A stretch of DNA of 64,000 nt from Candidatus Omnitrophota bacterium (GTDB taxonomy: Bacteria; Omnitrophota; Gorgyraeia; Zapsychrales; JBAZNR01), in NCBI GenBank assembly GCA_041649175.1, contig JBAZNR010000001.1, positions 71,461 to 135,460 on the forward strand, written 5' to 3'. The translations under genes and the position numbers were made by a program. Shown here one piece after another: positions 16,494 to 52,536 of the stretch (its first letter is position 1; each line of letters opens with the position of its first letter). A model generated the notes under the pieces. The model did no database searches. It worked only from the letters and a program-made list of their open reading frames with translations, and was not told where the DNA came from.

Positions 16494-16506
16494 TAAACAC
16501 CTGTCC

Positions 16507-17949: not shown

Positions 17950-17950
17950 A

Positions 17951-19440: not shown

Positions 19441-19461
19441 TTGTTTTAGCTCCTGAAGCGG

Positions 19462-21240: not shown

Positions 21241-21244
21241 AGCG

Positions 21245-23406: not shown

Positions 23407-25251
23407 TTATTGTAAAGAATCTAGGTAATGGAATTTTCCCTTGCGCTCTAATAATTGCTGATAGCTTCCGGATTCGCACACCTTTCCATCGTCAATGACA
23501 TAGATCATATCAGCCAGCTTTACGGTTGATAGACGGTGCGCGACCATAATGATCGTTAATTCCTTTTTCAATTCACTGATAGTTGACTGAATCATCGCTT
23601 CCGATTCTAAGTCTAATTCGCTGGTCGCCTCATCAAGAATTAGTATCTTTGGCTTCATAAATAAAGACCGTCCTAAAACCAACCGTTGGCGCTGGCCGCC
23701 GGAAAGCTTAATGCCGTTTTCACCGATCAACGTGTTAAGCCCTTGCGGTAGTTGGTCAACAAATTGATCAATACGCACTTTACGGCAAACATCGAGGATC
23801 ACTTCATCAGTTACAGAAGATGCGCCGATCGTCAGATTTTCTTTGATCGTTCCGTCCAAAAGCGACGGCTGTTGATTGACGTAAGCAACGCCATTTCGAA
23901 ACAAATTCTTATCTAGCTCATCATGCCGGATATCCCCATAATAAATAGCGCCTTGGTTGGGTTGGATCAATCCTAAAAGCAGATCGAGCATCGTTGATTT
24001 TCCGACACCGGAACTTCCCACAAAAGCCACGGTTGTTTTAGGCTTAATCGAAAAATTAAGCCCTGTTAAAACCTGCTGTCCGGACGGGTAAGCAAAATGA
24101 ACATCTTGAAACACAATAGGCTGATCACAGAAGAATTTCTTAGAACCGCTTTTTTCTTTATGCTCATCGAGGTCACGCAAATGCTTTTGAAGAGATTTGT
24201 GCATCGGAATATTGCTATCGAGCGCGGCATAGATATCAGAGAGGGCAACAAATTGCGGCGCGATCCGCAAGAAAACAAATAAGATCAAAAGCAGTGTTGC
24301 ATAATTGAGCGAAAGTTGTTGATGGAAAAATAAAAGCCCTATTAAAAATAGCGACGTGCCTAAAACGCTCCAAGAACGCTGGATCTCGATCAAAACGCTT
24401 TGACGCTTGATCTGGCGGCATAGATTTCCGACGATCAAAGAAATCGCATCGGTTAATTTTCCGCTTAAAACGGAAGCCTTAAAGAATTTCTTATTCTGTT
24501 GAAATCCGATAATATCGTTGGAAAGTTTTTTATAATTCTCATTGTAGCTTTCTGCGACCTTTAAAACACGGTTTGAAATTAAAGCGCTCACCAGCAATAA
24601 AAAGGCATAAACAACTGTTGCGGTCATCGTAACAATAAAGGATAACTTCATGGCAATACCAAGAAACGTAATAACTTGAACGAAGTTGATGAAAACCCTT
24701 TGGGCATTGAGATTACATTCGCTGGCAAACTGCGCTTCCCGGATAATGGCATAATACATTCCGCCTGAGTGTTTATCGGTAAGCCACAACCAATCGGCGT
24801 CGGCATAAGCCTTAATGACCTTTTCTCGATACTTTAGCAATAATTCCTCTTTAGCAAAGGTGGCAATAAGCGAAGAAAGAAATACCAAAGCCTGCCCTAT
24901 CAAAATAAGGACGCCTGCTGTCAATAAAACCGAATGGAATGTTAGGTCAATACCTAGAAATTTTAAAGGCACGGCAATGACTTTTAGATAGCTTGTACTG
25001 TCCGCCGCAAAACTTTTTTCCTGCATAAATTCTAAAACCGGGATAAGGATTGGCAGCCCGATAAAACTGGCCAAACTACTGACGATCTGAAAGAAGATCA
25101 CCCAGCGGTAGTTAGGCGACGTCACAATAAGATAGGCGATATACTTAAGCTTAGCCGCCGTTATTTGGCACCCCTTTCGCAACAAAGCAAATAAGCTAAA
25201 AAATATATTAAAAGGTTTTTGAATGGCTTCCATATCGTTATGAGTCTTCAT
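23407..25251 (-). CDS. ABC exporter, fused transmembrane domain and ATPase (MsbA-like type I exporter)
   Basis: 614 aa; six-TM N-terminal half; Walker A GSSGVGKST; signature LSGGQRQRL; Walker B ILILDEAT. Confidence 0.8.
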   Translation of the reverse strand: MKTHNDMEAIQKPFNIFFSLFALLRKGCQITAAKLKYIAYLIVTSPNYRWVIFFQIVSSLASFIGLPILIPVLEFMQEKSFAADSTSYLKVIAVPLKFLGIDLTFHSVLLTAGVLILIGQALVFLSSLIATFAKEELLLKYREKVIKAYADADWLWLTDKHSGGMYYAIIREAQFASECNLNAQRVFINFVQVITFLGIAMKLSFIVTMTATVVYAFLLLVSALISNRVLKVAESYNENYKKLSNDIIGFQQNKKFFKASVLSGKLTDAISLIVGNLCRQIKRQSVLIEIQRSWSVLGTSLFLIGLLFFHQQLSLNYATLLLILFVFLRIAPQFVALSDIYAALDSNIPMHKSLQKHLRDLDEHKEKSGSKKFFCDQPIVFQDVHFAYPSGQQVLTGLNFSIKPKTTVAFVGSSGVGKSTMLDLLLGLIQPNQGAIYYGDIRHDELDKNLFRNGVAYVNQQPSLLDGTIKENLTIGASSVTDEVILDVCRKVRIDQFVDQLPQGLNTLIGENGIKLSGGQRQRLVLGRSLFMKPKILILDEATSELDLESEAMIQSTISELKKELTIIMVAHRLSTVKLADMIYVIDDGKVCESGSYQQLLERKGKFHYLDSLQ

Positions 25252-25923: not shown

Positions 25924-27069
25924 TCATTTTGTTTTAATTTTCTTGTAAAAAGTCTGCGCGGACACATCCCAACACCAGCCCAAAAAGAAAGCAAAAAGCG
26001 GCATTGTCCAGCCAAATTGTCGCTGAAGGAACCAATATTTATTAATCAAATCTATGGCAATAACACATCCTATTCCAAAAACAATAAAAACGGCGAAAAA
26101 AACGATCTGTGGCCATTTATCTTTATGCGGAATCAACAAGGAAGCCAACATGCCTAAAAGCAGGAAATATAAAGCCTTATTGCCTATCAAATTACCTAAA
26201 ATACCTTTTAGAAAGCCGACAAGATTAGTTACCGGGCTTGGGATAAATTCAAACGTCGGTACAGCGCCAAAGAAAATCCTTTTCTCTTGGGAAAACCCAA
26301 GATTAATAGACGCATACCACAGCCATATTGCAATGGCGAAAACAAAAAACACTCCGAAGAATTTAATGATCGGATAGATTATTTCTTTAGAAAGGTTGCC
26401 TTTATGCCAATTTAGAAATAATGCATAAATAACCGATAGGCCTATAAACAAAATCCCATAAACATGGAAAATGACGACAAAAATCAGAAAAGCACTGATC
26501 CAAAGCTTTCTCGACAAGCTCATTTCCTTATATTTTTCCATCAAAAGTTCAGTAAAATACAGCGTTCCTACGGCGAGTGCTGGCAAAACAGCATAAGATC
26601 TAAATTCAAAAGCCTGAAATATCAATGTCTGATTTAAACAAACAATGCTAAACGCAACCAAATATCCCCAGATTGTCCGATAATACCTATTGCAGAGCAA
26701 ATACAAGAAGTAAAACAGTAAAATGGCCGACAAGACATGTGGGATCGCTAAAAACCATTTGTTCGCCTCGGCAACACGCTCTGCGAGAGCATAATCACGG
26801 ATCAAGGCATCACCAGCAATTCCCTGTTGAGCAAAAATCTTGATAAAAGGATAGGTTAGGATATAGTCGCCGGGAAAACTCGAAAAATCACCATAATGAT
26901 GCCGCAACCAAAAAGGCTTAAACGGCCCTGCAGAAGATTGGAATTGATACATCTCATCATTGGACAGTGTCCGGGAATTCAATTCGTGAGCCCGTAGCCC
27001 CAAAGCCCCAATAAAAAGAAGCGCGCAGATCAGGATCTTTTTATATCGATCATTCCATTTCATAGCCAA
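25924..27069 (-). CDS. polytopic inner-membrane protein; GT-C-like glycosyltransferase or polymerase/ligase suspected
   Basis: 381 aa with at least 10 predicted TM segments; N-terminal periplasmic-loop acidic motif (NDEMYQ). Family not certain. Confidence 0.35.
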   Translation of the reverse strand: MAMKWNDRYKKILICALLFIGALGLRAHELNSRTLSNDEMYQFQSSAGPFKPFWLRHHYGDFSSFPGDYILTYPFIKIFAQQGIAGDALIRDYALAERVAEANKWFLAIPHVLSAILLFYFLYLLCNRYYRTIWGYLVAFSIVCLNQTLIFQAFEFRSYAVLPALAVGTLYFTELLMEKYKEMSLSRKLWISAFLIFVVIFHVYGILFIGLSVIYALFLNWHKGNLSKEIIYPIIKFFGVFFVFAIAIWLWYASINLGFSQEKRIFFGAVPTFEFIPSPVTNLVGFLKGILGNLIGNKALYFLLLGMLASLLIPHKDKWPQIVFFAVFIVFGIGCVIAIDLINKYWFLQRQFGWTMPLFAFFLGWCWDVSAQTFYKKIKTK

Positions 27070-42479: not shown

Positions 42480-43484
42480 TTAGCGAACCTTGCCGCTATC
42501 GGGCTGATAGAAGATGATCTGACTTCCTAAGCTTTCAAAGCGAAAAGGAATTTCTAAATATTTCTTTAGCTTTTCTCGGATCTTTTTTTGTTTTTCAGGC
42601 TGTGCGAACAGAAGAACGAAGCCGCCGCCGCCAGCGCCTAATAATTTTCCACCCAAAGCCCCTGCCCGGCGAGCTGTATTGTATAATTCATCAATTTGAG
42701 GAGTGGTGATCTTATCGGAAAGGCTGCGCTTCAATTTCCAGCTTTCATGAAGAAGTTTTCCGAAACGCGAAAGATCTTTTCCCTCCACAATATCAAACGC
42801 CTCTTTGACCATCTCTTGCATGGCCCCCAGCTCTTTTCTTTTACTAGGGATATTTTTTATTTGATGTTCGGCGATCTCGGAGGCCATCCGCGAAAATCCC
42901 GTAAAAAACATCATCAAATGATCTTGCAAAGACTGCAGCCGTTCTTGCGGAATAGTGATCTTTCGGACAGACAAGTGACTGCTTCCGCCAAATTCAATAT
43001 AGTTAAATCCGCCATAAGCCGCTAATGTTTGATCTTGGCATCCGACATTTTCTTTGCATTTTTTCTGCTCGATATAGATCGCCTCTTTGGCTAAACGCTC
43101 TTTGGTCGGCATGGTTCCTTTAAGAGCATACAAGGCATTCAGAAGCCCAACGGTAAACGATGAGCTGGAACCGAGTCCAGTGCGCGCCGGTAAATCACCG
43201 TCGTGATGGATTTCGATCCCTTCTTTGATCTTTAAGAATTTTAAAACTTCACGAACCGCCGGATGGCGAATATCTTCAGTTTCCTGAATATGTTCAATCA
43301 CAGAATAAATAATGCGGGATTTGTGCTCAAAAAATGGCGGTAAATGGCGGCATGTAATATAACAATATTTATCAATGGTGGTCGCTAAAACAGCGCCTTT
43401 ATTTTCCTTGAACCAATCAGGATAATCGGTGCCGCCGCCAAAAAAAGAAACACGAAAAGGTGTCCGGCTAATGATCATACACAA
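42480..43484 (-). CDS. hddA: GHMP-family sugar kinase (HddA-like, D-glycero-D-manno-heptose-7-P kinase)
   Basis: ISRTPFRVSFFGGGTDYPDW...PARTGLGSSSSF (GHMP motif II). Confidence 0.7.
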   Translation of the reverse strand: MCMIISRTPFRVSFFGGGTDYPDWFKENKGAVLATTIDKYCYITCRHLPPFFEHKSRIIYSVIEHIQETEDIRHPAVREVLKFLKIKEGIEIHHDGDLPARTGLGSSSSFTVGLLNALYALKGTMPTKERLAKEAIYIEQKKCKENVGCQDQTLAAYGGFNYIEFGGSSHLSVRKITIPQERLQSLQDHLMMFFTGFSRMASEIAEHQIKNIPSKRKELGAMQEMVKEAFDIVEGKDLSRFGKLLHESWKLKRSLSDKITTPQIDELYNTARRAGALGGKLLGAGGGGFVLLFAQPEKQKKIREKLKKYLEIPFRFESLGSQIIFYQPDSGKVR

Positions 43485-44986
43485 ACCCTTTCTTCAAGAA
43501 TTTTACGGCGTAATTTTATTTTGGTTGATTTTAACGTTTCGTCGACGGCTGTTTGTCCAAATTTGTCTTTGAGTAAAGCGAGAAATTTTGGGTTGGTATG
43601 GTAAGTATGCCACGCTTTATCACGAAATTCCAAAACCTGTTCGGCGCTTAAATATTTTGTCGGCAAAGGCTGGCACGCATAAGAATGTTGGGAAAATCCC
43701 GCGTATGTATCAGGCAATTTCCACCCTTCTTTCTTGGCAATTCCATATAAAGGGCTGCCCGGATAAGCCATGGCAGAGTAAAAGTTCGCCATTTCCGTAT
43801 TAAGCTCAAGGGCTAGGTCAAGTGTCGCTTGCATGGTTTCAAGATTATCCTCGGGAAGTCCAAAAATATAATTCGCGGCAACATTGATGCCGTGATCGCG
43901 GATCTTTTTGACAATACCTCGGATATCAACATCTTCGAACCGCCCCTTAGTGACATCTTTTCTTACCTTAGTATTGCCGCTTTCAATGCCGAGTGCCAGA
44001 TAATTAATGCCGGCTTTTTTAAGAGTTTCCAAATACTGTTCTTTGACCGTATCAATACGCGAATAACACCAAATATTAAACTGATAATCACGCTCAATAA
44101 GCAGTTCACATAAACGCATAAAATGATTCGTGTTTAAAACAAAAAGTTCGTCAGCGATCTTAATATTTCGAATGCCAAGTGTTTGCAGTTTATCAAATTC
44201 CTTAACAATGAATTCCGGATCCCAATACCTAAAAACCGCGCTTCCATCGGAATATTCATTTTCCTGCCGATTGATGATGTTGATCATGCAAAAAGAACAT
44301 TTCATCGGGCAACCCAAGCTCGTATAGATCGCCCCGAAAGGTTCCCGGTCGGCGCTATTAGGAAGCGAGTGCCAAAGCGCCGTGCGATATCTGGACATAG
44401 ATAATTTATCCCAGGCAACGCCGGGCAATTCAGTTGCCAGATCTTCCTTGGACACGATCGGCGACGGGCTATTAAGAACGATTTTCCCATCTTGACGATA
44501 CCCTAGCCCAAGAACTTGGTCCAACTTATCTTCCAAATTAGTTTTAAGAAGATTGGAAATAGTGTAGACGCCTTCATTCTGGCAAACCATATCAATATAG
44601 GGATGTTTTTCAAGGACTTCGCGCGATAAAGCGCTGACATGCCCGCCGACAAAAAGTATTTTGATTTCCGGAGAATTTTTCTTGAGCTCTTCCGCTAAAG
44701 AAACAGCCCCATCCATATTTTGCGAACTGGCGCTGGGTTGTTGCCCGTAAACAACAAAACAGGCAACCTTGGGGTTAAAACCTTTGATCATCATCGCCGC
44801 GTGAAAATCATCCAGGCGCAAGGCTTCACAGTCTAAAATCTCGGCGCTAAACCCTTTTTTAAGGCAATGATTGGCTAACATCCCCGCCCAAATAGGCGGC
44901 TCAATGGCGGAATAATATTTGCTAAGCCCCTGATAAATTTTCTCGGAGGCATTAGGCTGGATAAAAAGAATATCGAGTTGCTTCAT
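43475..44986 (-). CDS. B12-binding radical SAM enzyme (class B; methyltransferase-like)
   Basis: N-terminal Rossmann-like B12-binding domain (ILFIQPNA...EILDCEA); TSLGCPMKCSFCMI CxxxCxxC; 503 aa. Confidence 0.8.
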   Translation of the reverse strand: MKQLDILFIQPNASEKIYQGLSKYYSAIEPPIWAGMLANHCLKKGFSAEILDCEALRLDDFHAAMMIKGFNPKVACFVVYGQQPSASSQNMDGAVSLAEELKKNSPEIKILFVGGHVSALSREVLEKHPYIDMVCQNEGVYTISNLLKTNLEDKLDQVLGLGYRQDGKIVLNSPSPIVSKEDLATELPGVAWDKLSMSRYRTALWHSLPNSADREPFGAIYTSLGCPMKCSFCMINIINRQENEYSDGSAVFRYWDPEFIVKEFDKLQTLGIRNIKIADELFVLNTNHFMRLCELLIERDYQFNIWCYSRIDTVKEQYLETLKKAGINYLALGIESGNTKVRKDVTKGRFEDVDIRGIVKKIRDHGINVAANYIFGLPEDNLETMQATLDLALELNTEMANFYSAMAYPGSPLYGIAKKEGWKLPDTYAGFSQHSYACQPLPTKYLSAEQVLEFRDKAWHTYHTNPKFLALLKDKFGQTAVDETLKSTKIKLRRKILEERVCV

Positions 44987-44998
44987 GAATTAAAAACC

Positions 44999-45931
44999 TT
45001 ATATATTGGCGTATTGGTTACGTTTGATGACCTGATAACCCTTAATAAGCTCTTGAATACCTTTAGAGATCGAAACATCCGGTTTAAAACCGGTTTTTTC
45101 GATCTTTTCGTTACTGACGATGTAATCACGTTTATCGGGATCTTCGCCTATTTTAGATTCAACAAAATAGAATTCCTTAACATGTTTCTTGATCTCTTCG
45201 CAAAGTTCTAATTTACTTAAATTCGCATCACTTAAGCCAACATTGTAAGGCTCATTTTTCATCTTGTCAAAATTGTTAAGTGAATGGATAAAGGCTTTAG
45301 TGATATCGCGCACATGAATATAGTTACGCTTAAAATGGGCTTCGAATAAAACGACAAAACGGTCAAAAACCGCGCGATAAACAAAATCATTCACCAGTAA
45401 ATCCAAGCGCATGCGCGGACTAACGCCAAAGGCCGTTGCTAAACGCAATGTAATTCCATGGCCGGAATTAAGGATCGTTTCTTCTGCCTGAACTTTAAGC
45501 TTTCCATATAAAGAAACAGGACGAAGCGGAGTTTGCTCGGTGCAAAACTTTCCTTTTTCTCCGATGCCATAACCGCTATTGGTCGTCGGAAAAATAAGGA
45601 TTTGATTTTTACTTGTCATGTCGACGATCGTTTTAACGGCATCCGCTAAAATAGTTTGCGCACCAACGGGGTCTTTGGCGCATAACGGCGCGCCTGTCAA
45701 GCAGGCCAAGGGGAAAATAGCGTCAGATTGCTTAACCAATTTCTCCATTAAATTCTTATCGCGCGTATCACCGCGAATGATCGTTAAATTGTCGCTATGA
45801 CAACAATCTAAAAGCGACGGTTGATTATACATAAAATTATCCAAGGCAATGACTTGATGATTTTCCTTGAGCAAGGCCGGTGTTAAAACCGAGCCGATGT
45901 ACCCCGCTGCGCCTGTTACCAAGATTTTCAT
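44999..45931 (-). CDS. NAD-dependent nucleotide-sugar epimerase/dehydratase (SDR)
   Basis: MKILVTGAAGYIGSVL...YGKLKVQAE (YxxxK). Start at MKILVTG, making an ATGA overlap with the fcl stop; the longer ORF runs to 45967. Confidence 0.75.
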   Translation of the reverse strand: MKILVTGAAGYIGSVLTPALLKENHQVIALDNFMYNQPSLLDCCHSDNLTIIRGDTRDKNLMEKLVKQSDAIFPLACLTGAPLCAKDPVGAQTILADAVKTIVDMTSKNQILIFPTTNSGYGIGEKGKFCTEQTPLRPVSLYGKLKVQAEETILNSGHGITLRLATAFGVSPRMRLDLLVNDFVYRAVFDRFVVLFEAHFKRNYIHVRDITKAFIHSLNNFDKMKNEPYNVGLSDANLSKLELCEEIKKHVKEFYFVESKIGEDPDKRDYIVSNEKIEKTGFKPDVSISKGIQELIKGYQVIKRNQYANI

Positions 45932-46872
45932 TTTTTTAACTCCGCTGTTTTTTGTTTTAAATACCAATCGTATGTTTTTGTGATGCCTTCTTTTAAATCG
46001 ACCTTTGGTTTCCAGCCTAATTTTTCAATCTTTTGATTATCCAACAATTTACGCATCGTTCCATCGGGCTTCGTCTTGTCAAAAATAATCTCCCCTTTAA
46101 ACCCGGATATATCCGCGATCAACGAAGCTAGCTCTTTGATGGAAACATCTCTCCCGCAACCAATATTGATCGGCTCCTCATCTTTGTATTTTTCCATTAA
46201 AAATAAACAGCTTTCAACAAAATCATCCGCGTAAATAAATTCCCGTTGTGGTTTTCCCGTCCCCCAGACTACAACGCTTTTTTCATTACGCAATTTGGCT
46301 TCGGTAAATTTCCCGATGAGCGCCCCAATAACATGCGCTGTTTCTTGATTGGCATCACTTCCGGGGCCGTAAATCGTCGCTGGAATTGCAACGATCGCGT
46401 CAAATTTGTATTGCCGCTGATAAGCTTGACAAAGCTTTATTCCGGCGATCTTGGCCACCGAATAGGCTTCACTCGTTTCTTCCAGGGGTCCTGTTAACAA
46501 ATATTTTTCTTTGATGGGCTGTAAACTTTCTTTAGGGTAAACGCAAGAGCCAGCCAAAAACAAAAGCTTTTTAACTCCAAAAGTATACGCCGCATGAACG
46601 ATATTGTTCTGAGCTTCTAGATTTTCGTAAATAAATTCGGCGGAAAATTTTTGATTAGCGGCAATTCCACCGGAACGCACCGAGCCCAAGAAAACATATT
46701 CCGGCCTTTTTTCTTCAAAGAACTTTTTTACGTTTGCCTGATTTAAAACATCCCACCCGATCATCCCGGATAAAAAAACATGATCAAATCCCTGTCGGGC
46801 AAAATACGACCCTAAGGAGTTTTCAATAACGTCTTGATGGCCGATAACTAGGATTTTACTACTTTTTTGCAT
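45928..46872 (-). CDS. fcl: GDP-L-fucose synthase (GDP-4-keto-6-deoxy-D-mannose 3,5-epimerase/4-reductase)
   Basis: KILVIGHQDVIENSLGSY...LFLAGSCVYPK...YSVAKIAG is the typical Fcl/WcaG signature. Confidence 0.8.
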   Translation of the reverse strand: MQKSSKILVIGHQDVIENSLGSYFARQGFDHVFLSGMIGWDVLNQANVKKFFEEKRPEYVFLGSVRSGGIAANQKFSAEFIYENLEAQNNIVHAAYTFGVKKLLFLAGSCVYPKESLQPIKEKYLLTGPLEETSEAYSVAKIAGIKLCQAYQRQYKFDAIVAIPATIYGPGSDANQETAHVIGALIGKFTEAKLRNEKSVVVWGTGKPQREFIYADDFVESCLFLMEKYKDEEPINIGCGRDVSIKELASLIADISGFKGEIIFDKTKPDGTMRKLLDNQKIEKLGWKPKVDLKEGITKTYDWYLKQKTAELKK

Positions 46873-46875
46873 GAA

Positions 46876-47412
46876 CTACTTTTGATTATAGAAGTTTCCG
46901 TGTTCTATCAGAAGAGTGGATTTATTATCTTTGCGCTCAAAGGCATGTTTGTAGGCCGGAAAAATATCTTCCGGTTCATTGAGCTCAACAACATCAATGG
47001 TGGTAAACATTTTTCTAAAGGCATCCGCGTAGTTTCCGACGTGCTGATGGCCGGGATGCACGGGGCTATCGGGTCCGGTTGCCACCCGAATTAAGACTTT
47101 AGGAATCAACTGATTAGCGCTGATCGCCGGTATTTTATCCAGCATATTGACCATATCTGAAACCGCAATGAGCAGAAAATTTTGCCGCGGATAAACCGAG
47201 ATAGGAATATACCCCGCTAGGGATAATCCGATCGTAAATTGCATTTGAAAACTTTCATTGATCGGCATTTCTAAAGTCCGCTCGGGCGATACATCGCGAA
47301 GCGTTTGGAACATAAAAGTCCCTGGCCCGGCAACAGTTTGCCCGACAAAAATAGACTTAGGCTGCTGGGCCAACCATTCCATCGTGCGTTTTAATTCGTC
47401 AAAATATTTCAT
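46876..47412 (-). CDS. thiamine-diphosphate enzyme, pyrimidine-binding subunit (E1-beta / transketolase C-section-like, minimal)
   Basis: 178 aa; Pyr-domain-like; lacks the C-terminal TK_C domain of canonical E1-beta. Confidence 0.6.
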   Translation of the reverse strand: MKYFDELKRTMEWLAQQPKSIFVGQTVAGPGTFMFQTLRDVSPERTLEMPINESFQMQFTIGLSLAGYIPISVYPRQNFLLIAVSDMVNMLDKIPAISANQLIPKVLIRVATGPDSPVHPGHQHVGNYADAFRKMFTTIDVVELNEPEDIFPAYKHAFERKDNKSTLLIEHGNFYNQK

Positions 47413-47413
47413 A

Positions 47414-48025
47414 TTAAAATTTAATGAGTTTTCCTAGCCCAGAATGCGGATAACCGTTTAGATATTTAAAATAGATGATCTTGGATTCAAATTTTGTATC
47501 TTTAAACCACGGCTCAGCGCAATTCCAGACTTCTCTGGTTTTTGTCATAACGCTAAGCCCATTATCGCAAACAATGAATTTAACCGGCAGGTCAAAGTGG
47601 ACGGCGTATTTCACCGATTCGTGAAAAATCCCCGTTTCAGCTGACATATCACCGCAAAAAATGTAGGCTTTTCCTTTTTTTCCTTGGCGTTTTAAAGCCC
47701 ATGCAACGCCGACCGCTGTTCCTAAAAGGCTTCCGACAATACCTGAACAGAGAATTTTCTGCCCCGGAAAACACAAAGAAATGCTTTTGCCTTCCTGAAT
47801 AGCCTTCTTAAGCTCTTCGCGCCCAACCCCTTTTAGAAGAGCCAGTTCGTGAGAATCCCAGAAGCCGAAGACATAGTCATCCGAGCCAATGGCATTTTCC
47901 TTAAAAATCCGGATGAGCTCGTCTTCCCGCCCGGCACGTAAATGGACAGGAGCCCGAATACTGCCAGTGGCAAAAATGTCGGCTATTTCCTTCTCAAAGC
48001 TGATGATTTCTTCTTTGGTAACCAT
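47414..48025 (-). CDS. thiamine-diphosphate enzyme, PP-binding subunit (E1-alpha-like, minimal)
   Basis: CGDMSAETGIFHESVKYAVHFDLPVKFIVCDNGLSV matches the GDG-X25-30-NN TPP motif and aligns with E1-alpha GDGA...FVCENNQYAM. The printed sequence has an extra C at 48000/48001 relative to the ORF track. Confidence 0.65.
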   Translation of the reverse strand: MVTKEEIISFEKEIADIFATGSIRAPVHLRAGREDELIRIFKENAIGSDDYVFGFWDSHELALLKGVGREELKKAIQEGKSISLCFPGQKILCSGIVGSLLGTAVGVAWALKRQGKKGKAYIFCGDMSAETGIFHESVKYAVHFDLPVKFIVCDNGLSVMTKTREVWNCAEPWFKDTKFESKIIYFKYLNGYPHSGLGKLIKF

Positions 48026-48058
48026 AGCAATTTAGACGTTTTAATGAAACGATAGTGT

Positions 48059-48087
48059 AGTATAGCGAAAACTTATCCTAAACTCAA
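48059..48087 (-). promoter_or_regulatory. candidate internal sigma70-type promoter (TTGAGT-17 nt-TATACT) upstream of the E1-alpha-like gene
   Basis: The minus-strand read is TTGAGTttaggataagttttcgcTATACTacactatcg..., 27 nt upstream of the ATG. It lies in the only large gap (about 270 bp) of the glycan operon. Confidence 0.3.
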
Positions 48088-48111
48088 ATAATAATATTTG
48101 GATTTTAGGGC

Positions 48112-48270
48112 CTAAAATAAGGCGTAGATAAACGGAGCTACGGCCGAACTTTGGGCCAAGATCATTAGCGATCCTAGCAGAATAAGGACTACAACGATCG
48201 GCATCAGCCAATACTTCTTTCTCACGCTTAAAAATTCCCATAATTCTTTCAGAATAGACAACTTCGACAT
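48112..48270 (-). CDS. small membrane protein, DUF5989/SxtK-like (52 aa; below the ORF-track length cut-off)
   Basis: Hand-translated as MSKLSILKELWEFLSVRKKYWLMPIVVVLILLGSLMILAQSSAVAPFIYALF*. AGGAGA sits 7 nt upstream of the ATG. There is one TM helix and a C-terminal APFIY(T/A)LF-type motif recalled from DUF5989 proteins. Coordinates are within 1 nt. Confidence 0.55.
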   Translation of the reverse strand: MSKLSILKELWEFLSVRKKYWLMPIVVVLILLGSLMILAQSSAVAPFIYALF

Positions 48271-48293
48271 GAATAGCTCTCCTTTTTTATTTC

Positions 48294-49925
48294 CTACTGG
48301 GCTAGTTTTTCTAAAATAACATCCGCCAACCGATCAGCGATCAGCTGATTACCCTTACGCGTACAATGCCCAAAATCTCCGGCAAATTGATCCACAAAAT
48401 ACTCATCATAACGCCCTGTTTTTAAGGCTTTCTCAAATACTTCTTTATTTTCAACAAAGATTATATTACGTTTCTGACCTAACATTTCCTTCAACGGCAG
48501 GATATCGCGCAAAGGATACTGCATACAGATCAGTTTCACCCTACTGCGTAAAATGCGGTCGACAATGTCGAGATAATGTTTGACGGTGAATGAATTATAC
48601 GTCCGAGAAGATGTCACTTTGCTTTTTTCGGCATATTCTTTGGCTAAATCGGATTTTCCTTGTCTTTCGTAACATCGAATCAAATATTCATAAAGACGCA
48701 CATCTTTGGGATTCAGCGCGATCGCTTTTAAATAAAGGCTTTCTGCTTTCGCATATTGCTGTTCCTCCTCGTAAAGAGAACCGAGCTGTTGATAGACCCA
48801 GTGATTTTGCGGATTGATCTCAAGAGACCTCAAGAAAGCTTCTTTAGCTTGGGCGTTTTGCCCCTGAATCTTTAGCCATTGGCCCATTTCGCCGTACGCC
48901 CAAAAGTTATTTGGATCTATTTTTAGTAAATCGCGATAAACCACAATGGCCTTTTCATGATTTCCCACTTCGTTATTGCATCGGCCTAATTCAAGGCGAG
49001 CCCAAAATAATTCCGGATCAAGCGCGATCGCTTTTTCAAAGACCGTTATTGCTTGATCAAATTTTCTTTGAACCTTATAACAACGGCCCAAGCCCGCATA
49101 GGCAACCGCATCTTGCGGGCTGATCTCGATCGCTTTTTGATAAGCACTTTCAGACTGGAGGAATTCTTCACGCTCCCGATGCCAGCGCCCTAACTCTGAA
49201 TAAAGATCTCCCAGGGCAAGATTAAGCTTCTGCTCTTGTTCTTGCGCTTTCTCAACACCTGCCAAATTTCCGCGTTTTTCATAAGCCTTTTTGATCTCTT
49301 GAATTAATTGATGGTTCTTTGTTATCTGCGTTATTTGGAAACGAATGACCGCGATCTCTTTAACTGGCACAACATCTTCCGGAATGTCGGAATATTGCTT
49401 TGGCCTCGTCTTAAATCCAAATCTAATTTTATGAGATACGTGCAATGCGAGAAGCTTGGCAAGTTTATAAACACGCAGGTCTCCCGCAAGAGAACGAATT
49501 GGTGCTTTTCTGTCCTGGCCGGCAAGGCCGTCATATTTGTCATCATTGATCCCCATCATCACAATGACTGCCTGCGGTTTGTACTTGGCCAAATTGGCTT
49601 CGAGCTGCGCGGCGATATCGCCCGAGTCTTTAGCCGGAAGTCCCTTATTGATAATTTTAAATTTAATTTTTCTGCTTCTTTCATTGAGAGTTTCTTCAAG
49701 CAAAAAAGGATAGGCATATTCTCCGCCTAAGGCTGTTGTTGATTCTCCTAAGCATAAAATACGATATTCGCTGTCACCTTGAAGAGAAATCTTATTTGAC
49801 CGCTCCTGCAGATAAAAGAATGCCGCGCCGCTTAAGCGCAATCCTGACTCCAAAAGAATAACGGATAAAGCTAGGCCTAAAAAAATGAGGGATATTTTCT
49901 GGATCAATGTTGTTTTCATGATCAT
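48294..49925 (-). CDS. membrane-anchored SGNH/GDSL-family hydrolase interrupted by a TPR-repeat domain (paralogue 1)
   Basis: N-terminal TM anchor; block I ILCLGESTT (Ser nucleophile); block III MMGINDD; about 280 aa of TPR repeats (AYAGLGRCY, WARLELGRC, WAYGEMGQW, WVYQQLGSLY...); C-terminal block V DFGHCT (DxxH). Confidence 0.7.
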   Translation of the reverse strand: MIMKTTLIQKISLIFLGLALSVILLESGLRLSGAAFFYLQERSNKISLQGDSEYRILCLGESTTALGGEYAYPFLLEETLNERSRKIKFKIINKGLPAKDSGDIAAQLEANLAKYKPQAVIVMMGINDDKYDGLAGQDRKAPIRSLAGDLRVYKLAKLLALHVSHKIRFGFKTRPKQYSDIPEDVVPVKEIAVIRFQITQITKNHQLIQEIKKAYEKRGNLAGVEKAQEQEQKLNLALGDLYSELGRWHREREEFLQSESAYQKAIEISPQDAVAYAGLGRCYKVQRKFDQAITVFEKAIALDPELFWARLELGRCNNEVGNHEKAIVVYRDLLKIDPNNFWAYGEMGQWLKIQGQNAQAKEAFLRSLEINPQNHWVYQQLGSLYEEEQQYAKAESLYLKAIALNPKDVRLYEYLIRCYERQGKSDLAKEYAEKSKVTSSRTYNSFTVKHYLDIVDRILRSRVKLICMQYPLRDILPLKEMLGQKRNIIFVENKEVFEKALKTGRYDEYFVDQFAGDFGHCTRKGNQLIADRLADVILEKLAQ

Positions 49926-49939
49926 AAAAGCGCTTTAAC

Positions 49940-51559
49940 TTATTTAATATTTTTTAGTATGGCTTTAGAAATATTTTCAGCCAATAATTTATTTCCCTGG
50001 GCCGTGCAATGGCCAAAATCACCGGCAAAACGATCGTAGAAATACTGGTCATATCCGTTTTTGTTAACAGCGTCCTGAAAAACTGCCCGATTATCAACAA
50101 AAATAATTCCCGTGGAAGATAGATCTTTTCTCAATAGCGCAATATCGCGCAAAGGATACTGAGCGCAGATAAGCTTTATTCCTTTTTTAAGGACAATTTC
50201 TTTTAATTGTTGGTAGTTGGACATCGTTGGAGAATCATGTTTGACCAGCCTTTTCTGCCGTAAATTGATCAATTGGTTTGCCAAATCTTTCTTTCCCTGA
50301 GACTCATAATAGGAAGCCAGCCGCGCATAGATATCGGCCGACGAACCGGAAAACTGCCCGGACGTTAACCTCAAAAAAAGATCCTGAAAAACTTTTTGCG
50401 CTTCTTCCGGTTTATTATTTTCCTGCAAAATAAAACCTAGTTCCAAAATCCAGACCGGAACCTGTACAGATTCGGGATTAGCATCAATGGCTTTTTTAAA
50501 TAAATCCTCCAGGAGATCTTCTTTGGCGTTTTTCCGATAACAATAGGCTATCTTGCCGTAAACCCAAACATTTTCAGGATTAGTTTCCAGTTGTTTTTGG
50601 TACATCAGTTCTGCTTCATGATATCTTTGCTGTTCTAAATAAACATCGGCCAAATTACCGTAAATCTCTAAATTATCCGGAACAACAGCCAAGATCCGCT
50701 TATAAAGATTTTCGGCTTGAGAATATTTCGCCTGCATTTTATAGCAGTTTGCTAATTGATACGTTGCCACGAACTGATGTTCATCCGAGAGCTTTCCCAA
50801 TTCGATGACTTTTTTAAACGCGTCTTCACCTTTTTTGTAATCCGCCCATTCACGATAATAAAGGCCTAAATAAAAGTAGGCTTGCGCATTATTGCCATCC
50901 AGCTCGATTGCTCTTAAATAAGCTTCTTTCTCCTTGTCGAACTTTTGGACCATTTTATACATACGCCCTAATTCCATGTATTTTTCTGATGATGGAGACA
51001 GAGAGATCTTTTTTTCAAAATCTTTGACTTTTCTCTCCAATGTTTCCATAATCAATTCCTCTTTTTTGTGCTCCGCATGAGACCAGATCAACCTAGCCAA
51101 CTTATAAACCTTCAATCCATCCAAGAAAGACCTCTGCAGATTTTTCTCTTGAGCTTTAAATCGCAAGGTATCCGAAGAGTCATTAATGCCCATCATCGTA
51201 ACGATCATCTTTGGATGATATTCGTCGATCCAGGTTTCCAAATACGAAACGATATCGTATGTATTCATCGCCGGGACACCTTTATTGATAACGGAAAAAC
51301 GAACGGAAGGATTTTTGGCATTGAGGATTTCTTCTAATTGCCGAGGATACGCGTGCGCGCCGCCCAAAGCCGTGGTAGATTCTCCCAGACAAAGGATCCG
51401 GTATTCTCCGTTGCCGCAGGCAGAAGCACGGTTAAGGCTTTCCTGAAAGAACAGAAAAGCAAATCCGCCGATCCTTAAAGCTATTTCAAGGAAAGCAATA
51501 GCTAAGAAAAGGCCGAAACATATAAGGAATAACTTTTGTCTTAAAGTAGTTTGAGGCAT
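49940..51559 (-). CDS. membrane-anchored SGNH/GDSL-family hydrolase interrupted by a TPR-repeat domain (paralogue 2)
   Basis: Same architecture: YRILCLGESTTALGG, MMGINDS, central TPR repeats, FAGDFGHCTAQGN. The catalytic segments are about 55% identical to paralogue 1. Confidence 0.7.
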   Translation of the reverse strand: MPQTTLRQKLFLICFGLFLAIAFLEIALRIGGFAFLFFQESLNRASACGNGEYRILCLGESTTALGGAHAYPRQLEEILNAKNPSVRFSVINKGVPAMNTYDIVSYLETWIDEYHPKMIVTMMGINDSSDTLRFKAQEKNLQRSFLDGLKVYKLARLIWSHAEHKKEELIMETLERKVKDFEKKISLSPSSEKYMELGRMYKMVQKFDKEKEAYLRAIELDGNNAQAYFYLGLYYREWADYKKGEDAFKKVIELGKLSDEHQFVATYQLANCYKMQAKYSQAENLYKRILAVVPDNLEIYGNLADVYLEQQRYHEAELMYQKQLETNPENVWVYGKIAYCYRKNAKEDLLEDLFKKAIDANPESVQVPVWILELGFILQENNKPEEAQKVFQDLFLRLTSGQFSGSSADIYARLASYYESQGKKDLANQLINLRQKRLVKHDSPTMSNYQQLKEIVLKKGIKLICAQYPLRDIALLRKDLSSTGIIFVDNRAVFQDAVNKNGYDQYFYDRFAGDFGHCTAQGNKLLAENISKAILKNIK

Positions 51560-51579: not shown

Positions 51580-52536
51580 CTAAGCTAACGGCCGGCTGTG
51601 ATCTTTAAACCACTGTACCGTTTCTTTTATTCCGTCTTCCAGACCGATCTTGGGTTGCCAACCAAGTTTTGTTTTCGCCAGGGCAATGTCCGGCCGACGC
51701 TGCTTGGGATCATCGATAGGAAGCGGTTTATAAACGATCTTGGCTTTAGCCTTAGAAAACTTTACTATCAGTTTGGCAAATTCTAAAATAGTAAACTCGT
51801 TAGGATTACCGATATTAACTGGGCCGGGAAGTTTAGAAAACAAAAGCCGAGTGATCCCTTCAACCAAGTCAGAGACATAACAAAACGACCTGGTTTGCTT
51901 ACCATTGCCATAAACAGTTAGCGGCTTGTTGTGCAACATTTGGTATATAAAATTCGGGACAACACGTCCGTCAAGCATACGCATGCGAGGGCCATAGGTA
52001 TTAAAGATCCGGACGATCTTAGTATCGATTTTGTGAACGCGCCGATATGCCATGGTAATGGCTTCGGCAAACCGCTTGGCTTCATCATAAACTCCGCGCG
52101 GGCCGATGGGATTAACGTGTCCCCAGTAAGTCTCTTTTTGCGGATGAACCAGCGGATCGCCATAAACCTCTGACGTCGACGCTAAAAGGAACTTTGCTTT
52201 CTTCGCTTTTGCCAGCCCTAATGCATTATGTGTCCCTAACGCGCCAACCTTAAGTGTTGGGATAGGAAAATTGAGATAGTCAACCGGGCTTGCCGGTGAC
52301 GCAAAATGCAGGACATAATGAACAGCTCCCTCGATATGAAGAGGCTTTGAAACATCATGATGAACAAATTCAAAGCTCTTGTTATCCAACAGATGTTTAA
52401 TATTGTCCTTGGAACCGGTGATCAAATTATCAACGCACAAGACCTTAAATCCGGATGAAATAAAACGGTCGCATAAATGACTTCCTAAAAATCCCGCCCC
52501 GCCGGTGATCAATATCGTTTTTTTCTGTTTTGACAT
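51580..52536 (-). CDS. UDP-glucuronate decarboxylase (UDP-xylose synthase, UXS/ArnA-C-like)
   Basis: [20 protein letters not shown]...[16 protein letters not shown]...YDEAKRFAE is the UXS signature. Confidence 0.85.

What the first reader, a model, noticed from the sequence alone, without database searches (positions are those of the whole stretch)
48112..48270. Unlisted 52-codon DUF5989/SxtK-like membrane ORF with a strong RBS inside the glycan operon
A 159-nt ORF lies in the 270-bp gap between the TPR-SGNH genes and the E1-like TPP enzyme genes. It is below the 60-aa ORF-track cut-off and in a different frame from the listed 66-aa ORF. It has a textbook AGGAGA-N7-ATG start, one hydrophobic helix, and a C-terminal SAVAPFIYALF. 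It resembles the widespread DUF5989 small proteins (SxtK of saxitoxin clusters), which normally travel with SxtJ-like membrane proteins and carbamoyl/acyl-transferases. Here it sits beside two SGNH hydrolases, which suggests a conserved glycan O-modification (acyl/carbamoyl) module.
Basis: partly seen in the sequence, partly recalled or inferred. Interest (0 to 1): 0.65.

Follow-up and report, generated by a model that had tools for sequence, protein, structure and literature searches.

The report
SxtK-type membrane microprotein beside SGNH enzymes
The small ORF is a real, already catalogued 52-residue membrane protein of the function-unknown DUF5989/SxtK family, and its invariant C-terminal tyrosine motif and its SGNH-enzyme neighbours suggest, without proving, that it hands a carbamoyl or acyl group to enzymes that decorate a cell-surface sugar.

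Summary
The ORF lies on the minus strand, 48112-48270, with AGGAGA-N7-ATG. It hits Pfam DUF5989 over its full length (E 5.7e-25). GenBank already names the identical protein "DUF5989 family protein" (MFA5059109.1, Candidatus Omnitrophota).

In 80 loci from many phyla, DUF5989 sits with a NodU-type carbamoyltransferase (72) and SxtJ (73). A membrane-anchored SGNH protein is a frequent fourth partner, adjacent in 27. The window has no carbamoyltransferase, SxtJ, MBOAT or AT3 in 64 kb. However, a syntenic relative carries carbamoyltransferase-SxtJ-DUF5989-TPR-SGNH in exactly this operon slot. Another relative has AsnB-TPR-SGNH and no DUF5989. The slot is therefore a variable modification cassette.

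New lead: the invariant C-terminus APFIY[AT][LI]F-COOH matches the FxYxxF "acyl-shuttle" hexapeptide of DltX and bacterial MBOATs (NgPatA FIYANF). There the tyrosine carries the acyl group to an SGNH transferase. I propose the same role here, at about 35-40% confidence. The donor in this window is unidentified. The family assignment is near certain, the gene is not new, and the mechanism is a testable hypothesis.

The parts
48112..48270 (-). DUF5989/SxtK-family microprotein gene (52 aa plus stop).
   Evidence: Pfam PF19451 scores E 5.7e-25 over the full length. An identical GenBank protein is named DUF5989 family protein. All 13 invariant family residues are present: E9 W11 F13 R17 K18 W21 L22 P24 A45 P46 F47 Y49 F52.
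48278..48283 (-). Shine-Dalgarno AGGAGA, 7 nt before the ATG, inside the 23-nt spacer after the upstream SGNH gene.
   Evidence: Read directly from the sequence.
48211..48264 (-). N-terminal amphipathic, positively charged helix (residues 3-20), predicted cytoplasmic.
   Evidence: The AF2 model has helix 3-21. There are 5 K/R in residues 1-20 and none after the membrane helix. The topology is inferred from the positive-inside rule.
48151..48210 (-). Single transmembrane helix (residues 21-40, WLMPIVVVLILLGSLMILAQ).
   Evidence: The Kyte-Doolittle peak is 2.67 at residues 21-39. AF2 gives helix 23-51 with a break before P24.
48115..48132 (-). C-terminal hexapeptide FIYALF-COOH (residues 47-52), matching FxYxxF. 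Tyr49 is the proposed carrier residue and is predicted extracytoplasmic.
   Evidence: The hexapeptide is invariant in the family: 263 of 270 proteins have PF[IV]Y..F, and 244 have it at the exact C-terminus. The same motif defines the DltX/MBOAT acyl shuttle (PMC12148441). The MBOAT in L086 and 119 relatives end in PFIYFQF.
48294..49925 (-). TPR-SGNH protein A (543 aa). It has an N-terminal membrane helix and an SGNH domain split by a roughly 270-residue TPR insert.
   Evidence: Pfam finds Lipase_GDSL_2 plus TPR families. Block I is GESTT 60-64, block III is GIND 125-128 and block V is DFGH 517-520. The AF2 model has pLDDT 88.2 with strands 53-59, 88-93 and 119-123, then TPR helices 187-460, then strands 464-468 and 488-491.
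49940..51559 (-). TPR-SGNH protein B (539 aa), a paralogue of A (34% identity), 14 nt upstream of A.
   Evidence: Pfam hits. The same catalytic blocks are present: GESTT 59, GIND 124, DFGH 514. The GenBank entry is MFA5059111.1. Identity comes from the alignment.
46876..48025 (-). Downstream boundary of the cassette slot: split E1-like thiamine-diphosphate enzyme genes (203 aa and 178 aa).
   Evidence: Pfam finds E1_dh and Transket_pyr. The genes are 75-85% identical to those in the syntenic loci L092 and L098.
51580..52536 (-). Upstream boundary of the cassette slot: NAD-dependent epimerase/dehydratase gene.
   Evidence: Pfam hit. The gene is 74% identical in both L092 and L098, and the variable cassette begins directly after it.

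Best explanation
SHOWN. The ORF is a genuine gene for a DUF5989/SxtK-family membrane microprotein. It is the last gene of a three-gene unit (TPR-SGNH B, TPR-SGNH A, DUF5989). That unit occupies a variable 'modification cassette' slot in a conserved nucleotide-sugar/glycan operon of an Omnitrophota bacterium. In a syntenic relative the same slot holds carbamoyltransferase-SxtJ-DUF5989-TPR-SGNH. Family-wide, DUF5989 is tied to a NodU-type carbamoyltransferase, SxtJ and, often, a membrane-anchored SGNH enzyme. This is the same quartet as sxtI-sxtJ-sxtK-sxtL.

INFERRED. The protein sits N-terminus-in and C-terminus-out. Its invariant C-terminal FIYALF is a tyrosine 'shuttle' of the kind used by DltX and by the C-termini of bacterial MBOATs. 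Tyr49 would be loaded on the outer face of the membrane with a small acyl-type group. In complete modules this would be a carbamoyl group made by the cytoplasmic carbamoyltransferase and passed through or along SxtJ. The tyrosine would then present the group to the catalytic serine (Ser62 in protein A) of the membrane-anchored SGNH enzymes. Those enzymes would transfer it to the glycan made by this operon, with the TPR insert holding the polymer or the export machinery.

In this window the loading enzymes are missing. Either they are encoded elsewhere on the 1.2-Mb contig and act in trans, or the group and its donor are different here. The family identity is about 0.97 certain. The stated confidence refers to the shuttle mechanism.
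For: Gene reality and family.

Cassette: L098/L099 carries carbamoyltransferase-SxtJ-DUF5989-TPR-SGNH between the same epimerase and E1 genes. Its flanks are 60-80% identical to the window and its DUF5989 is 69% identical.

Partners: the carbamoyltransferase is present in 72 of 80 loci and SxtJ in 73 of 80. The SGNH subfamily lies within 300 bp in 27 of 80 loci and is about 20-fold enriched in the first kb. Pfam confirms that the sampled hits are GDSL/SGNH, and one also hits AlgX.

DUF5989-SGNH pairs without the carbamoyltransferase or SxtJ nearby recur: the window, L096/L097, L070 and L072.

Motif: APFIY[AT][LI]F-COOH is invariant. PMC12148441 defines FXYXXF as the acyl-shuttle motif. Its Tyr receives the acyl group and passes it to the SGNH serine, and the NgPatA peptide is FIYANF. 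DltX is a roughly 49-residue single-pass protein whose last residues dock in the DltD active site (PMC13653941). MBOATs fetched here end in ..S[AST]x[ILV]xPFIYFQF. The profile comparison of DUF5989 with the last 52 MBOAT residues aligns in register (columns 27-49 with 27-49), with score 22.1 and P 2e-4. This is the best of 47 windows along the MBOAT, and the next best scores 16.8.

Chance rate of F.Y..F-COOH: only 2 apparently spurious cases among 8,254 ORFs.

Topology: 5 K/R before the membrane helix and 0 after it.

The SGNH enzymes have intact catalytic blocks and an N-terminal membrane helix, like DltD and PatB.

sxtL, which lies next to sxtK, is a GDSL lipase (PMC2679770 and PMC2885083).
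Against: No loading enzyme is in the window: no carbamoyltransferase, SxtJ, MBOAT or AT3 in 64 kb.

The syntenic relative L092/L093 has the TPR-SGNH gene but no DUF5989. Five other TPR-SGNH relatives also lack it. The SGNH enzyme therefore does not need an adjacent DUF5989.

Only about a third of the modules have an adjacent SGNH gene.

SxtJ shows no invariant His/Ser/Cys/Asp of a catalytic kind. How a carbamoyl group would cross the membrane is unexplained.

The motif is short. The hhalign probability is only 49%, and the Pfam scan at E<=1 returns DUF5989 alone. No DltX sequence could be compared directly.

The topology is predicted, not measured, and no chemistry was tested.

Saxitoxin carbamoylation, the eponymous case, is assumed to be cytoplasmic.
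Confidence: 0.38

Rival explanations
1. DUF5989 is a non-catalytic accessory subunit of the cytoplasmic carbamoyltransferase, acting as a membrane tether or regulator together with SxtJ. This is what the saxitoxin literature assumes (an SxtI/SxtJ/SxtK complex). The window copy would then be a leftover of cassette reshuffling. It would serve a carbamoyltransferase-SxtJ pair encoded elsewhere, or have no role in this operon.
For: The strongest and most constant linkage is to the carbamoyltransferase and SxtJ: 72 and 73 of 80 loci. The literature treats SxtI/J/K as one unit (PMC2679770 and PMC12300590). The same slot holds carbamoyltransferase-SxtJ-DUF5989-SGNH in L098 and no DUF5989 in L092, which shows gain and loss. 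SxtJ has a conserved charged C-terminal tail that could dock a soluble enzyme.
Against: A tether does not explain an invariant hexapeptide at the exact C-terminus on the predicted outer face. It also does not explain the hexapeptide's identity with the MBOAT/DltX motif. The window copy keeps every invariant residue and a strong ribosome-binding site. DUF5989-SGNH pairs without the carbamoyltransferase or SxtJ recur in at least three other genomes.
Confidence: 0.3
2. DUF5989 is a structural partner of the membrane-anchored SGNH enzymes. It would act as an assembly, stability or positioning factor in the membrane. Its C-terminus would bind the SGNH active-site cleft as a plug or regulator, without carrying any group.
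For: DUF5989 is tightly adjacent and probably co-translated with two SGNH genes here, with spacers of 14 and 23 nt. SGNH adjacency recurs family-wide. The DltX C-terminal peptide is known to bind the active sites of both DltD and DltE (PMC13653941), so binding without transfer is conceivable.
Against: It does not explain the near-obligate linkage to an ATP-dependent carbamoyltransferase. Most modules have no adjacent SGNH gene. TPR-SGNH relatives commonly occur without DUF5989.
Confidence: 0.2
3. The 52-codon ORF is not a gene. It would be a chance ORF, or the overlapping 66-codon ORF (48041-48241, other frame) would be the real product.
For: The ORF is small, it overlaps an alternative ORF, and small-ORF calls are often unreliable.
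Against: Pfam scores E 5.7e-25 over the full length. Thousands of homologues exist across phyla, with 13 invariant residues. A canonical ribosome-binding site is present. The ORF is called independently by NCBI and in Logan assemblies.
Confidence: 0.01

Closest known systems
DUF5989 (Pfam PF19451), the SxtK family
   Same: The match to the profile is full-length. The protein has the same length of about 50 aa, the same single membrane helix and all the invariant residues. It is 65-79% identical to hundreds of members.
   Different: No carbamoyltransferase or SxtJ lies beside it or anywhere in the 64-kb window. It follows two TPR-SGNH genes instead. The family itself has no established function (PMC2885083), and no paper in the searchable library mentions DUF5989.
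The sxtI-sxtJ-sxtK-sxtL block of cyanobacterial saxitoxin clusters
   Same: The cast is the same: O-carbamoyltransferase, SxtJ, SxtK and a GDSL/SGNH protein (PMC2679770 and PMC2885083). The syntenic locus L098 carries all four.
   Different: The setting here is a surface-glycan operon, not a toxin cluster. Two of the four genes are absent. The SGNH proteins carry a membrane anchor and a TPR insert. SxtL has been interpreted as a decarbamoylase, not a transferase.
DltX, the acyl-shuttle microprotein of the D-alanylation (Dlt) pathway
   Same: DltX is a single-pass membrane protein of about 50 residues with a C-terminal FxYxxF hexapeptide. It works with a membrane-anchored SGNH-fold transferase, DltD (PMC12148441 and PMC13653941).
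   Different: No sequence-level membership was detected: the Pfam scan at E<=1 gives DUF5989 only. No MBOAT partner and no carrier protein are present. The linked cytoplasmic enzyme is an ATP-dependent carbamoyltransferase, so the group carried would be a carbamoyl rather than D-alanyl. No biochemical evidence exists.
C-terminal acyl-shuttle hexapeptide of bacterial MBOATs (PatA, AlgI and relatives) with SGNH partners (PatB, AlgJ/AlgX)
   Same: The terminal sequence is nearly identical: DUF5989 ..QSSAVAPFIYALF, the L086 MBOAT ..QSTDIQPFIYFQF and NgPatA FIYANF. In each case it follows a final membrane helix, and the profile alignment is in register. The partner enzyme is an SGNH protein with an N-terminal membrane helix.
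   Different: Here the motif is on a free-standing microprotein. There is no MBOAT core and no invariant catalytic histidine anywhere in the module; SxtJ has none.

Membership tests
DUF5989 / SxtK (PF19451) | The score against the family profile is above the curated cut-off, over the full length. | tested here: met
   The score is 87.6 bits against a cut-off of 27, E 5.7e-25, covering profile positions 2-49 of 49.
DUF5989 / SxtK (PF19451) | The protein has about 50 residues, one membrane helix and the conserved ExWxF..RKK.WL.P and APFIYxxF-COOH signatures. | tested here: met
   All 13 invariant columns of a 38-sequence alignment are present. One hydrophobic segment spans residues 21-39.
DUF5989 / SxtK (PF19451) | The genomic partners are an adjacent SxtJ and a NodU/CmcH-type carbamoyltransferase. 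| tested here: not met
   Neither is present in the 64-kb window (Pfam; own profiles). Both are present in the same operon slot of the syntenic L098 and in 72-73 of 80 other loci. The rest of the 1.2-Mb contig could not be read.
DltX-type tyrosine acyl-shuttle microprotein | The protein carries a C-terminal FxYxxF hexapeptide. | tested here: met
   FIYALF lies at the exact C-terminus. The motif is invariant family-wide. It is defined in PMC12148441.
DltX-type tyrosine acyl-shuttle microprotein | The protein is single-pass with an extracytoplasmic C-terminus. | tested here: inconclusive
   The positive-inside rule favours N-in/C-out, with 5 K/R before the helix and 0 after it. This is a prediction only.
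DltX-type tyrosine acyl-shuttle microprotein | A partner SGNH-fold transferase with an N-terminal membrane helix is present. | tested here: met
   Two such genes lie directly upstream. SGNH genes are recurrently adjacent in the family. Whether they act as transferases rather than hydrolases was not testable.
DltX-type tyrosine acyl-shuttle microprotein | A partner MBOAT loads the tyrosine. | tested here: not met
   No MBOAT is present in the window. MBOATs seen next to modules in L086 and L025 carry their own motif.
DltX-type tyrosine acyl-shuttle microprotein | The protein shows sequence homology to DltX or to the MBOAT C-terminal helix. | tested here: inconclusive
   hhalign against the last 52 MBOAT residues gives score 22.1, P 2e-4 and probability 49%. 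The alignment is in register and is the best of 47 windows. No DltX family appears in the Pfam scan at E<=1. No PDB chain matches at E<=10.
DltX-type tyrosine acyl-shuttle microprotein | A covalent acyl-tyrosine intermediate forms. | not testable with these tools
   This requires mass spectrometry or radiolabelling.
SGNH/GDSL hydrolase superfamily (the two neighbouring genes) | Conserved blocks I (GxS), II (G), III (GxND) and V (DxxH) are present on an alpha/beta fold. | tested here: met
   The blocks are GESTT 60-64, G95, GIND 125-128 and DFGH 517-520. S62, N127 and H520 are invariant in 55 relatives. Pfam finds Lipase_GDSL_2. The AF2 model has pLDDT 88 with five strands split by the TPR insert.

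The most novel reading that the evidence does not exclude
DUF5989/SxtK would be a third, free-standing form of the tyrosine 'acyl shuttle', after DltX and the MBOAT C-terminus. With SxtJ and a NodU-type carbamoyltransferase it would form a previously unrecognised trans-membrane O-carbamoylation (or acylation) pathway. That pathway would feed periplasmic SGNH transferases. It is present in thousands of bacterial lineages, including SAR11, Trichodesmium, Acidobacteriota, Planctomycetota and candidate phyla. The window would then show a stripped-down version, with the shuttle and two TPR-SGNH transferases inside a glycan operon. This would also reinterpret SxtJ, SxtK and SxtL of the saxitoxin clusters.
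Probability: 0.3. Interest if true: 0.85.

Novelty: new member of a known kind. Interest (0 to 1): 0.5.

Why it matters
As a gene the ORF is ordinary. It is a textbook member of a large, already catalogued family, and GenBank already names it.

What matters is what it exposes. DUF5989/SxtK and SxtJ have had no function since the sxt cluster was described (PMC2885083; still so in the 2025 review PMC12300590). Yet DUF5989 has at least 5,727 clusters at 50% identity, across very distant phyla and even in streamlined genomes.

Three observations turn 'unknown function' into a sharp, cheap experiment: a Tyr-to-Phe mutant, and a search for a carbamoyl-tyrosine adduct.
- The family's invariant C-terminus is the same hexapeptide that carries acyl groups in the DltX and MBOAT systems.
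- A membrane-anchored SGNH enzyme is a recurrent fourth partner.
- Related genomes swap carbamoyltransferase-SxtJ-DUF5989-SGNH, SGNH-SGNH-DUF5989 and AsnB-SGNH in one operon slot.

If the hypothesis holds, it would add carbamoylation to the known envelope-polymer acylation chemistry. It would also explain how a cytoplasmic carbamoyltransferase can modify a periplasmic glycan.

Tried and rejected
- NCBIfam gave no family for the microprotein. The only line was IcaD at E 0.068 (13 bits against a cut-off of 69), which I dismiss as noise.
- A PDB sequence search with the family profile found nothing at E<=10.
- A PDB search with the SGNH-subfamily profile found generic GDSL esterases first. AlgX and PatB1 were only weaker hits, so it gives no transferase-versus-hydrolase call.
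- The key DltX paper (Schultz et al. 2023) is not held. I relied on PMC12148441 and PMC13653941, and I could not obtain DltX sequences for a direct profile comparison.
- Literature searches for DUF5989, and for SxtJ/SxtK together with MBOAT, SGNH or DltX, found no prior link. The library is incomplete.
- Longer 'fusion' proteins among the representatives are gene-calling artefacts. They are over-extended starts, frameshifts into the carbamoyltransferase, or read-through under other genetic codes. P0184 may be an exception.
- Promoter and terminator scans around the gene were at or near shuffle expectation. There is no convincing terminator in the 86-nt gap after the gene.
- I looked for a hidden loading enzyme in the window. 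The only polytopic proteins are an ABC exporter (23407-25251) and an 8-helix GT-C-like protein (25924-27069). Both lie more than 20 kb away and neither resembles an acyltransferase.
- The metagenome scan with the TPR-SGNH protein gave only three distant loci, none with DUF5989.
- Caveat on my own data: the 80 genome loci were retrieved with peptide patterns that include the C-terminal motif. Motif conservation in that set is therefore partly by construction. The independent sets are those, analysed.
Full report
**1. The observation.** The ORF exists, on the minus strand, at 48112-48270. It has 52 codons plus a stop and encodes MSKLSILKELWEFLSVRKKYWLMPIVVVLILLGSLMILAQSSAVAPFIYALF. It lies in the 268-bp gap between the stop of a 543-aa TPR-SGNH gene (48294-49925) and the start of a 203-aa E1-like gene (47414-48025). 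It is 23 nt after the former and 86 nt before the latter. The minus-strand sequence before the ATG is AAAAAGGAGAGCTATTC, that is AGGAGA-N7-ATG. A 66-codon ORF in another frame of the same strand overlaps it. G+C is 41.5%, like the window at 42.2%.

**2. It is a real gene of a known family.**
- Pfam PF19451 (DUF5989) matches residues 5-52 to profile positions 2-49 of 49, at E 5.7e-25 and 87.6 bits against a cut-off of 27.
- NCBIfam has no model for it.
- The word-indexed search returned 279 relatives at 65-79% identity. The top hit is the identical protein, held by NCBI, JGI, ENA and Logan on a 1,225,647-bp contig. Its accession is MFA5059109.1, 'MAG: DUF5989 family protein [Candidatus Omnitrophota bacterium]'.
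- It is also called in an independent Logan assembly of the same locus.
- An exhaustive HMMER search found 5,727 cluster representatives at E<=0.001.

The ORF is therefore 'unlisted' only with respect to the 60-aa ORF track.

**3. Anatomy of the protein.** A 38-sequence alignment has 13 invariant positions: E9 W11 F13 R17 K18 W21 L22 P24 A45 P46 F47 Y49 F52. The window protein has them all. AF2 with this alignment gives helix 3-21, a break before P24, and helix 23-51, with lower confidence over the last 12 residues. One hydrophobic segment spans residues 21-39. Residues 1-20 carry 5 K/R. The 12 residues after the membrane helix carry no charge. By the positive-inside rule the protein is N-in/C-out; this is an inference.

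The C-terminus is always [AS]PF[IV]Y[ATS][LIV]F. Of 270 family proteins from two independent searches, 263 have PF[IV]Y..F and 244 have it at the exact C-terminus. The 19 'extended' and most of the 7 'missing' cases are read-through or frameshift calls.

**4. Surroundings in the window.** The whole window is one minus-strand array of envelope-glycan genes.
- Upstream of the ORF lie two paralogous proteins (543 and 539 aa, 34% identical). Each has an N-terminal membrane helix and an SGNH domain split by a TPR insert.
- In protein A, block I is GESTT 60-64, block III is GIND 125-128 and block V is DFGH 517-520. S62, N127 and H520 are invariant in 55 relatives.
- AF2 gives pLDDT 88.2, with SGNH strands on both sides of TPR helices 187-460.
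- Further upstream lie an epimerase, UDP-sugar dehydrogenases, a nucleotidyltransferase and LptD.
- Downstream lie a split E1-like thiamine-diphosphate enzyme, two epimerases, a B12-radical-SAM enzyme, a GHMP kinase, a nucleotidyltransferase, aminotransferases and glycosyltransferases.
- Nowhere in the 64 kb is there a carbamoyltransferase, SxtJ, MBOAT or AT3 acyltransferase. This holds for Pfam at E<=1e-5 and for my own carbamoyltransferase and SxtJ profiles.

**5. What the family travels with.** I fetched 80 loci from one genome per species, spanning Omnitrophota, Ignavibacteriota, Pelagibacteraceae, Trichodesmium, Acidobacteriota, Planctomycetota, Gemmatimonadota, candidate phyla and even a DPANN MAG. 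I built profiles by iteration from Pfam-verified seeds.
- 72 of 80 loci have a NodU-type carbamoyltransferase and 73 of 80 have SxtJ next to DUF5989. The gene order is carbamoyltransferase-SxtJ-DUF5989 or SxtJ-DUF5989-carbamoyltransferase.
- A profile seeded with the N-terminal SGNH part of the window proteins hits 36 loci. In 27 the hit lies within 300 bp of the module, and 19 of those are on the same strand.
- The SGNH hit density is 20.5 per 100 kb in the first kb, 5.6 in the second, and at most 2.1 per 100 kb (mostly about 1) in every 1-kb bin beyond 2 kb.
- Pfam confirms the sampled hits as GDSL/SGNH, and one also matches AlgX.
- Examples: L038 carbamoyltransferase-SxtJ-(TPR-SGNH, E 4e-48 to the window protein)-DUF5989; L043 and L061 SxtJ-SGNH-DUF5989-carbamoyltransferase; L046, L066 and L077 DUF5989-SGNH; L071 (Trichodesmium) SxtJ-DUF5989 followed by 4-5 tandem SGNH genes.
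- This is the same quartet as sxtI-sxtJ-sxtK-sxtL, where SxtL is a GDSL lipase (PMC2679770 and PMC2885083).
- Beyond these four genes the neighbourhoods are heterogeneous. The 104 flanking genes hit 116 Pfam families, and only 4 of them are GT2. The module is therefore self-contained and not generally part of glycan clusters.
- Loci with DUF5989 but without the carbamoyltransferase or SxtJ in reach are L013, L026, L027, L070 and L072. L070 and L072 have DUF5989-SGNH, and L027 has DUF5989-carA.

**6. Synteny of this very operon.** Searching with the TPR-SGNH protein found 415 relatives, mostly from Omnitrophota, Patescibacteria and Elusimicrobia. Their contexts show three states of one slot.
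- (a) L098/L099 (GCA_021783915.1): epimerase | carbamoyltransferase-SxtJ-DUF5989-TPR-SGNH | E1a-E1b-epimerase-epimerase-B12 rSAM-GHMP kinase-NTP transferase. The flanks are 60-80% identical to the window, DUF5989 is 69% identical and the SGNH protein is 40% identical.
- (b) The window: epimerase | SGNH_B-SGNH_A-DUF5989 | E1....
- (c) L092/L093 (GCA_900218215.1): epimerase | AsnB-TPR-SGNH | E1.... The flanks are 67-85% identical. There is no DUF5989, carbamoyltransferase or SxtJ in a six-frame profile search, and only 90 bp lie between the SGNH and E1 genes.

In addition, L096/L097 (a 1.29-Mb contig) has DUF5989 16 bp upstream of a TPR-SGNH gene, with neither the carbamoyltransferase nor SxtJ within 6 kb. 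There the small gene is missed by the ENA annotation. Other TPR-SGNH relatives (L089-L091, L094, L095) have no DUF5989.

The ORF is therefore conserved in one of two syntenic relatives. It belongs to a cassette that is gained, lost and rearranged.

**7. The mechanistic lead.** The C-terminal FIYALF fits FxYxxF.
- PMC12148441 describes FXYXXF as the 'acyl shuttle' motif. [quoted passage not shown]
- The invariant tyrosine is acylated by the MBOAT and hands the group to the catalytic serine of the SGNH partner (DltD, PatB). [quoted passage not shown]
- DltX of L. plantarum has 49 residues, and its last residues dock in the DltD pocket (PMC13653941).
- By chance, one fetched locus (L086) carries an AlgI-type MBOAT convergent to a carbamoyltransferase-SxtJ-DUF5989 module. 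It ends in ...VFQVQSTDIQPFIYFQF, compared with DUF5989 ...MILAQSSAVAPFIYALF. All 119 MBOAT homologues retrieved that carry a C-terminal PFIY..F motif (the 22 read in full end in PFIYFQF) show it after a final membrane helix.
- hhalign of the DUF5989 profile against the last 52 residues of these MBOATs aligns columns 27-49 with 27-49, in register from the C-termini. The score is 22.1, P is 2e-4 and the probability is 49%. Among 47 windows tiled along the MBOAT alignment this is the best; the next best scores 16.8 and is another membrane helix.
- Among 8,254 complete ORFs in all fetched loci, F.Y..F-COOH occurs outside DUF5989 only four times. Two are MBOAT-type tails (L086 and L025) and two are apparently chance.

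The resemblance is real but short. It supports 'works like', not membership.

**8. Proposed working (inferred).** In complete modules the cytoplasmic carbamoyltransferase uses ATP and carbamoyl phosphate; this chemistry is established knowledge of the TobZ/NodU family. The SGNH domain and the DUF5989 C-terminus are predicted to be periplasmic. This is the same topological problem that MBOAT-DltX-DltD solves.

I propose that SxtJ is the membrane adaptor. It has about four membrane helices and a conserved charged tail ending ..SYW....Y.RQF. Tyr49 of DUF5989 would be the carrier, and the SGNH enzyme would be the final transferase onto the glycan.

An O-aryl carbamate is a chemically competent carbamoyl donor to a serine hydrolase; this rests on general knowledge of carbamate inhibitors and was not tested here.

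Weak points:
- SxtJ has no invariant catalytic-type residue.
- Only a third of the modules have an adjacent SGNH gene.
- The window lacks the loading enzymes.
- The syntenic L092 lacks DUF5989.
- Nothing was measured.

I put this mechanism at about 0.35-0.4. The 'carbamoyltransferase accessory subunit, orphan here' reading is at about 0.3. A non-covalent SGNH partner is at about 0.2.

**9. Novelty and verdict.** The gene is a typical, already deposited and named member of DUF5989. Only its context is unusual, with DUF5989 uncoupled from the carbamoyltransferase and SxtJ and coupled to duplicated TPR-SGNH genes, and that context recurs in at least one other genome.

No paper in the searchable library mentions DUF5989. 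None links SxtJ or SxtK to DltX, MBOAT or SGNH shuttles. Reviews up to 2025 still list SxtJ and SxtK as uncharacterised. The library is incomplete, so priority cannot be claimed.

The finding is ordinary as a gene call. It is of moderate interest as the entry point to a testable hypothesis for a very widespread family of unknown function.

Noticed in passing
L098 3521-7629, window 48112-51559 and L092 4289-7665: The same slot of a conserved sugar operon holds three different cassettes in related genomes: carbamoyltransferase-SxtJ-DUF5989-TPR-SGNH, TPR-SGNH x2-DUF5989, and AsnB-TPR-SGNH. An AsnB-like gene also follows DUF5989-SGNH in L070. AsnB might be an alternative ATP-dependent activating enzyme for the SGNH step.
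   Followed up: partly
window 42480-48025 (minus strand): An unusual conserved sugar-pathway block comprises a split E1-like thiamine-diphosphate enzyme (203 and 178 aa), two epimerases, a B12-binding radical-SAM enzyme, a GHMP kinase and a nucleotidyltransferase. It is syntenic at 60-85% identity in two other genomes. The sugar it makes is unknown.
   Followed up: partly
window 13733-23375 (minus strand): This is a nonulosonic-acid (pseudaminic/legionaminic-type) gene set. It includes NeuB, two CMP-sugar cytidylyltransferases, a PseG-like protein with a GNAT domain, a HisF/HisH-like pair, a DegT aminotransferase and a PseB-like dehydratase.
   Followed up: no
window 25924-27069 (minus strand): A 381-aa protein with about 8 membrane helices has no Pfam hit at E<=1e-5 and no PDB sequence hit. 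Its N-terminal region looks like a GT-C/PMT-type glycosyltransferase.
   Followed up: partly
L086 5634-7100 (minus strand) and L025 9478-9624: An AlgI-type MBOAT ending in QPFIYFQF lies convergent to a carbamoyltransferase-SxtJ-DUF5989 module. In L025 a 48-codon ORF ending in SPFLYFQF lies just upstream of an SGNH fragment next to another module. Either two tyrosine-motif systems sit side by side, or this is coincidence within envelope-modification regions.
   Followed up: partly
L071 7572-16150 (Trichodesmium erythraeum IMS101): SxtJ-DUF5989 is followed by four to five tandem SGNH paralogues of about 400 aa, with no carbamoyltransferase within 8 kb.
   Followed up: no
window 48294-49925 and alignment A4: In the TPR-SGNH family, two cysteines (C58 and C521) are invariant and sit next to the catalytic Ser62 and His520. 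They may form a disulfide, which would argue for a periplasmic location. E26 and R30 in the N-terminal helix are also invariant, and a similar E-x-x-x-R occurs in 19 of 47 SGNH-subfamily members.
   Followed up: partly
L096 5826-5984: An intact DUF5989 gene 16 bp upstream of a TPR-SGNH gene is absent from the ENA gene calls of a 1.29-Mb contig, but it is called in a Logan assembly (L097). Small genes of this family are still missed by some pipelines.
   Followed up: yes
protein P0184 (390 aa, from the representative library): P0184 consists of a membrane helix, a periplasmic sensor-like domain, a second membrane helix and then a complete DUF5989 at the C-terminus. If it is real, the architecture agrees with an N-in/C-out topology for DUF5989. 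It may instead be a chimeric call.
   Followed up: no
L027 4317-5712, and 2 of 104 flanking genes in A3: The carbamoyl-phosphate synthase small subunit (carA) lies directly after a solitary DUF5989 and recurs among module neighbours. This hints at a link to carbamoyl-phosphate supply.
   Followed up: no
window 48041-48241 (minus strand): A 66-codon ORF overlaps the DUF5989 gene in another frame. Nothing supports it as a gene. I did not test it for homologues.
   Followed up: no
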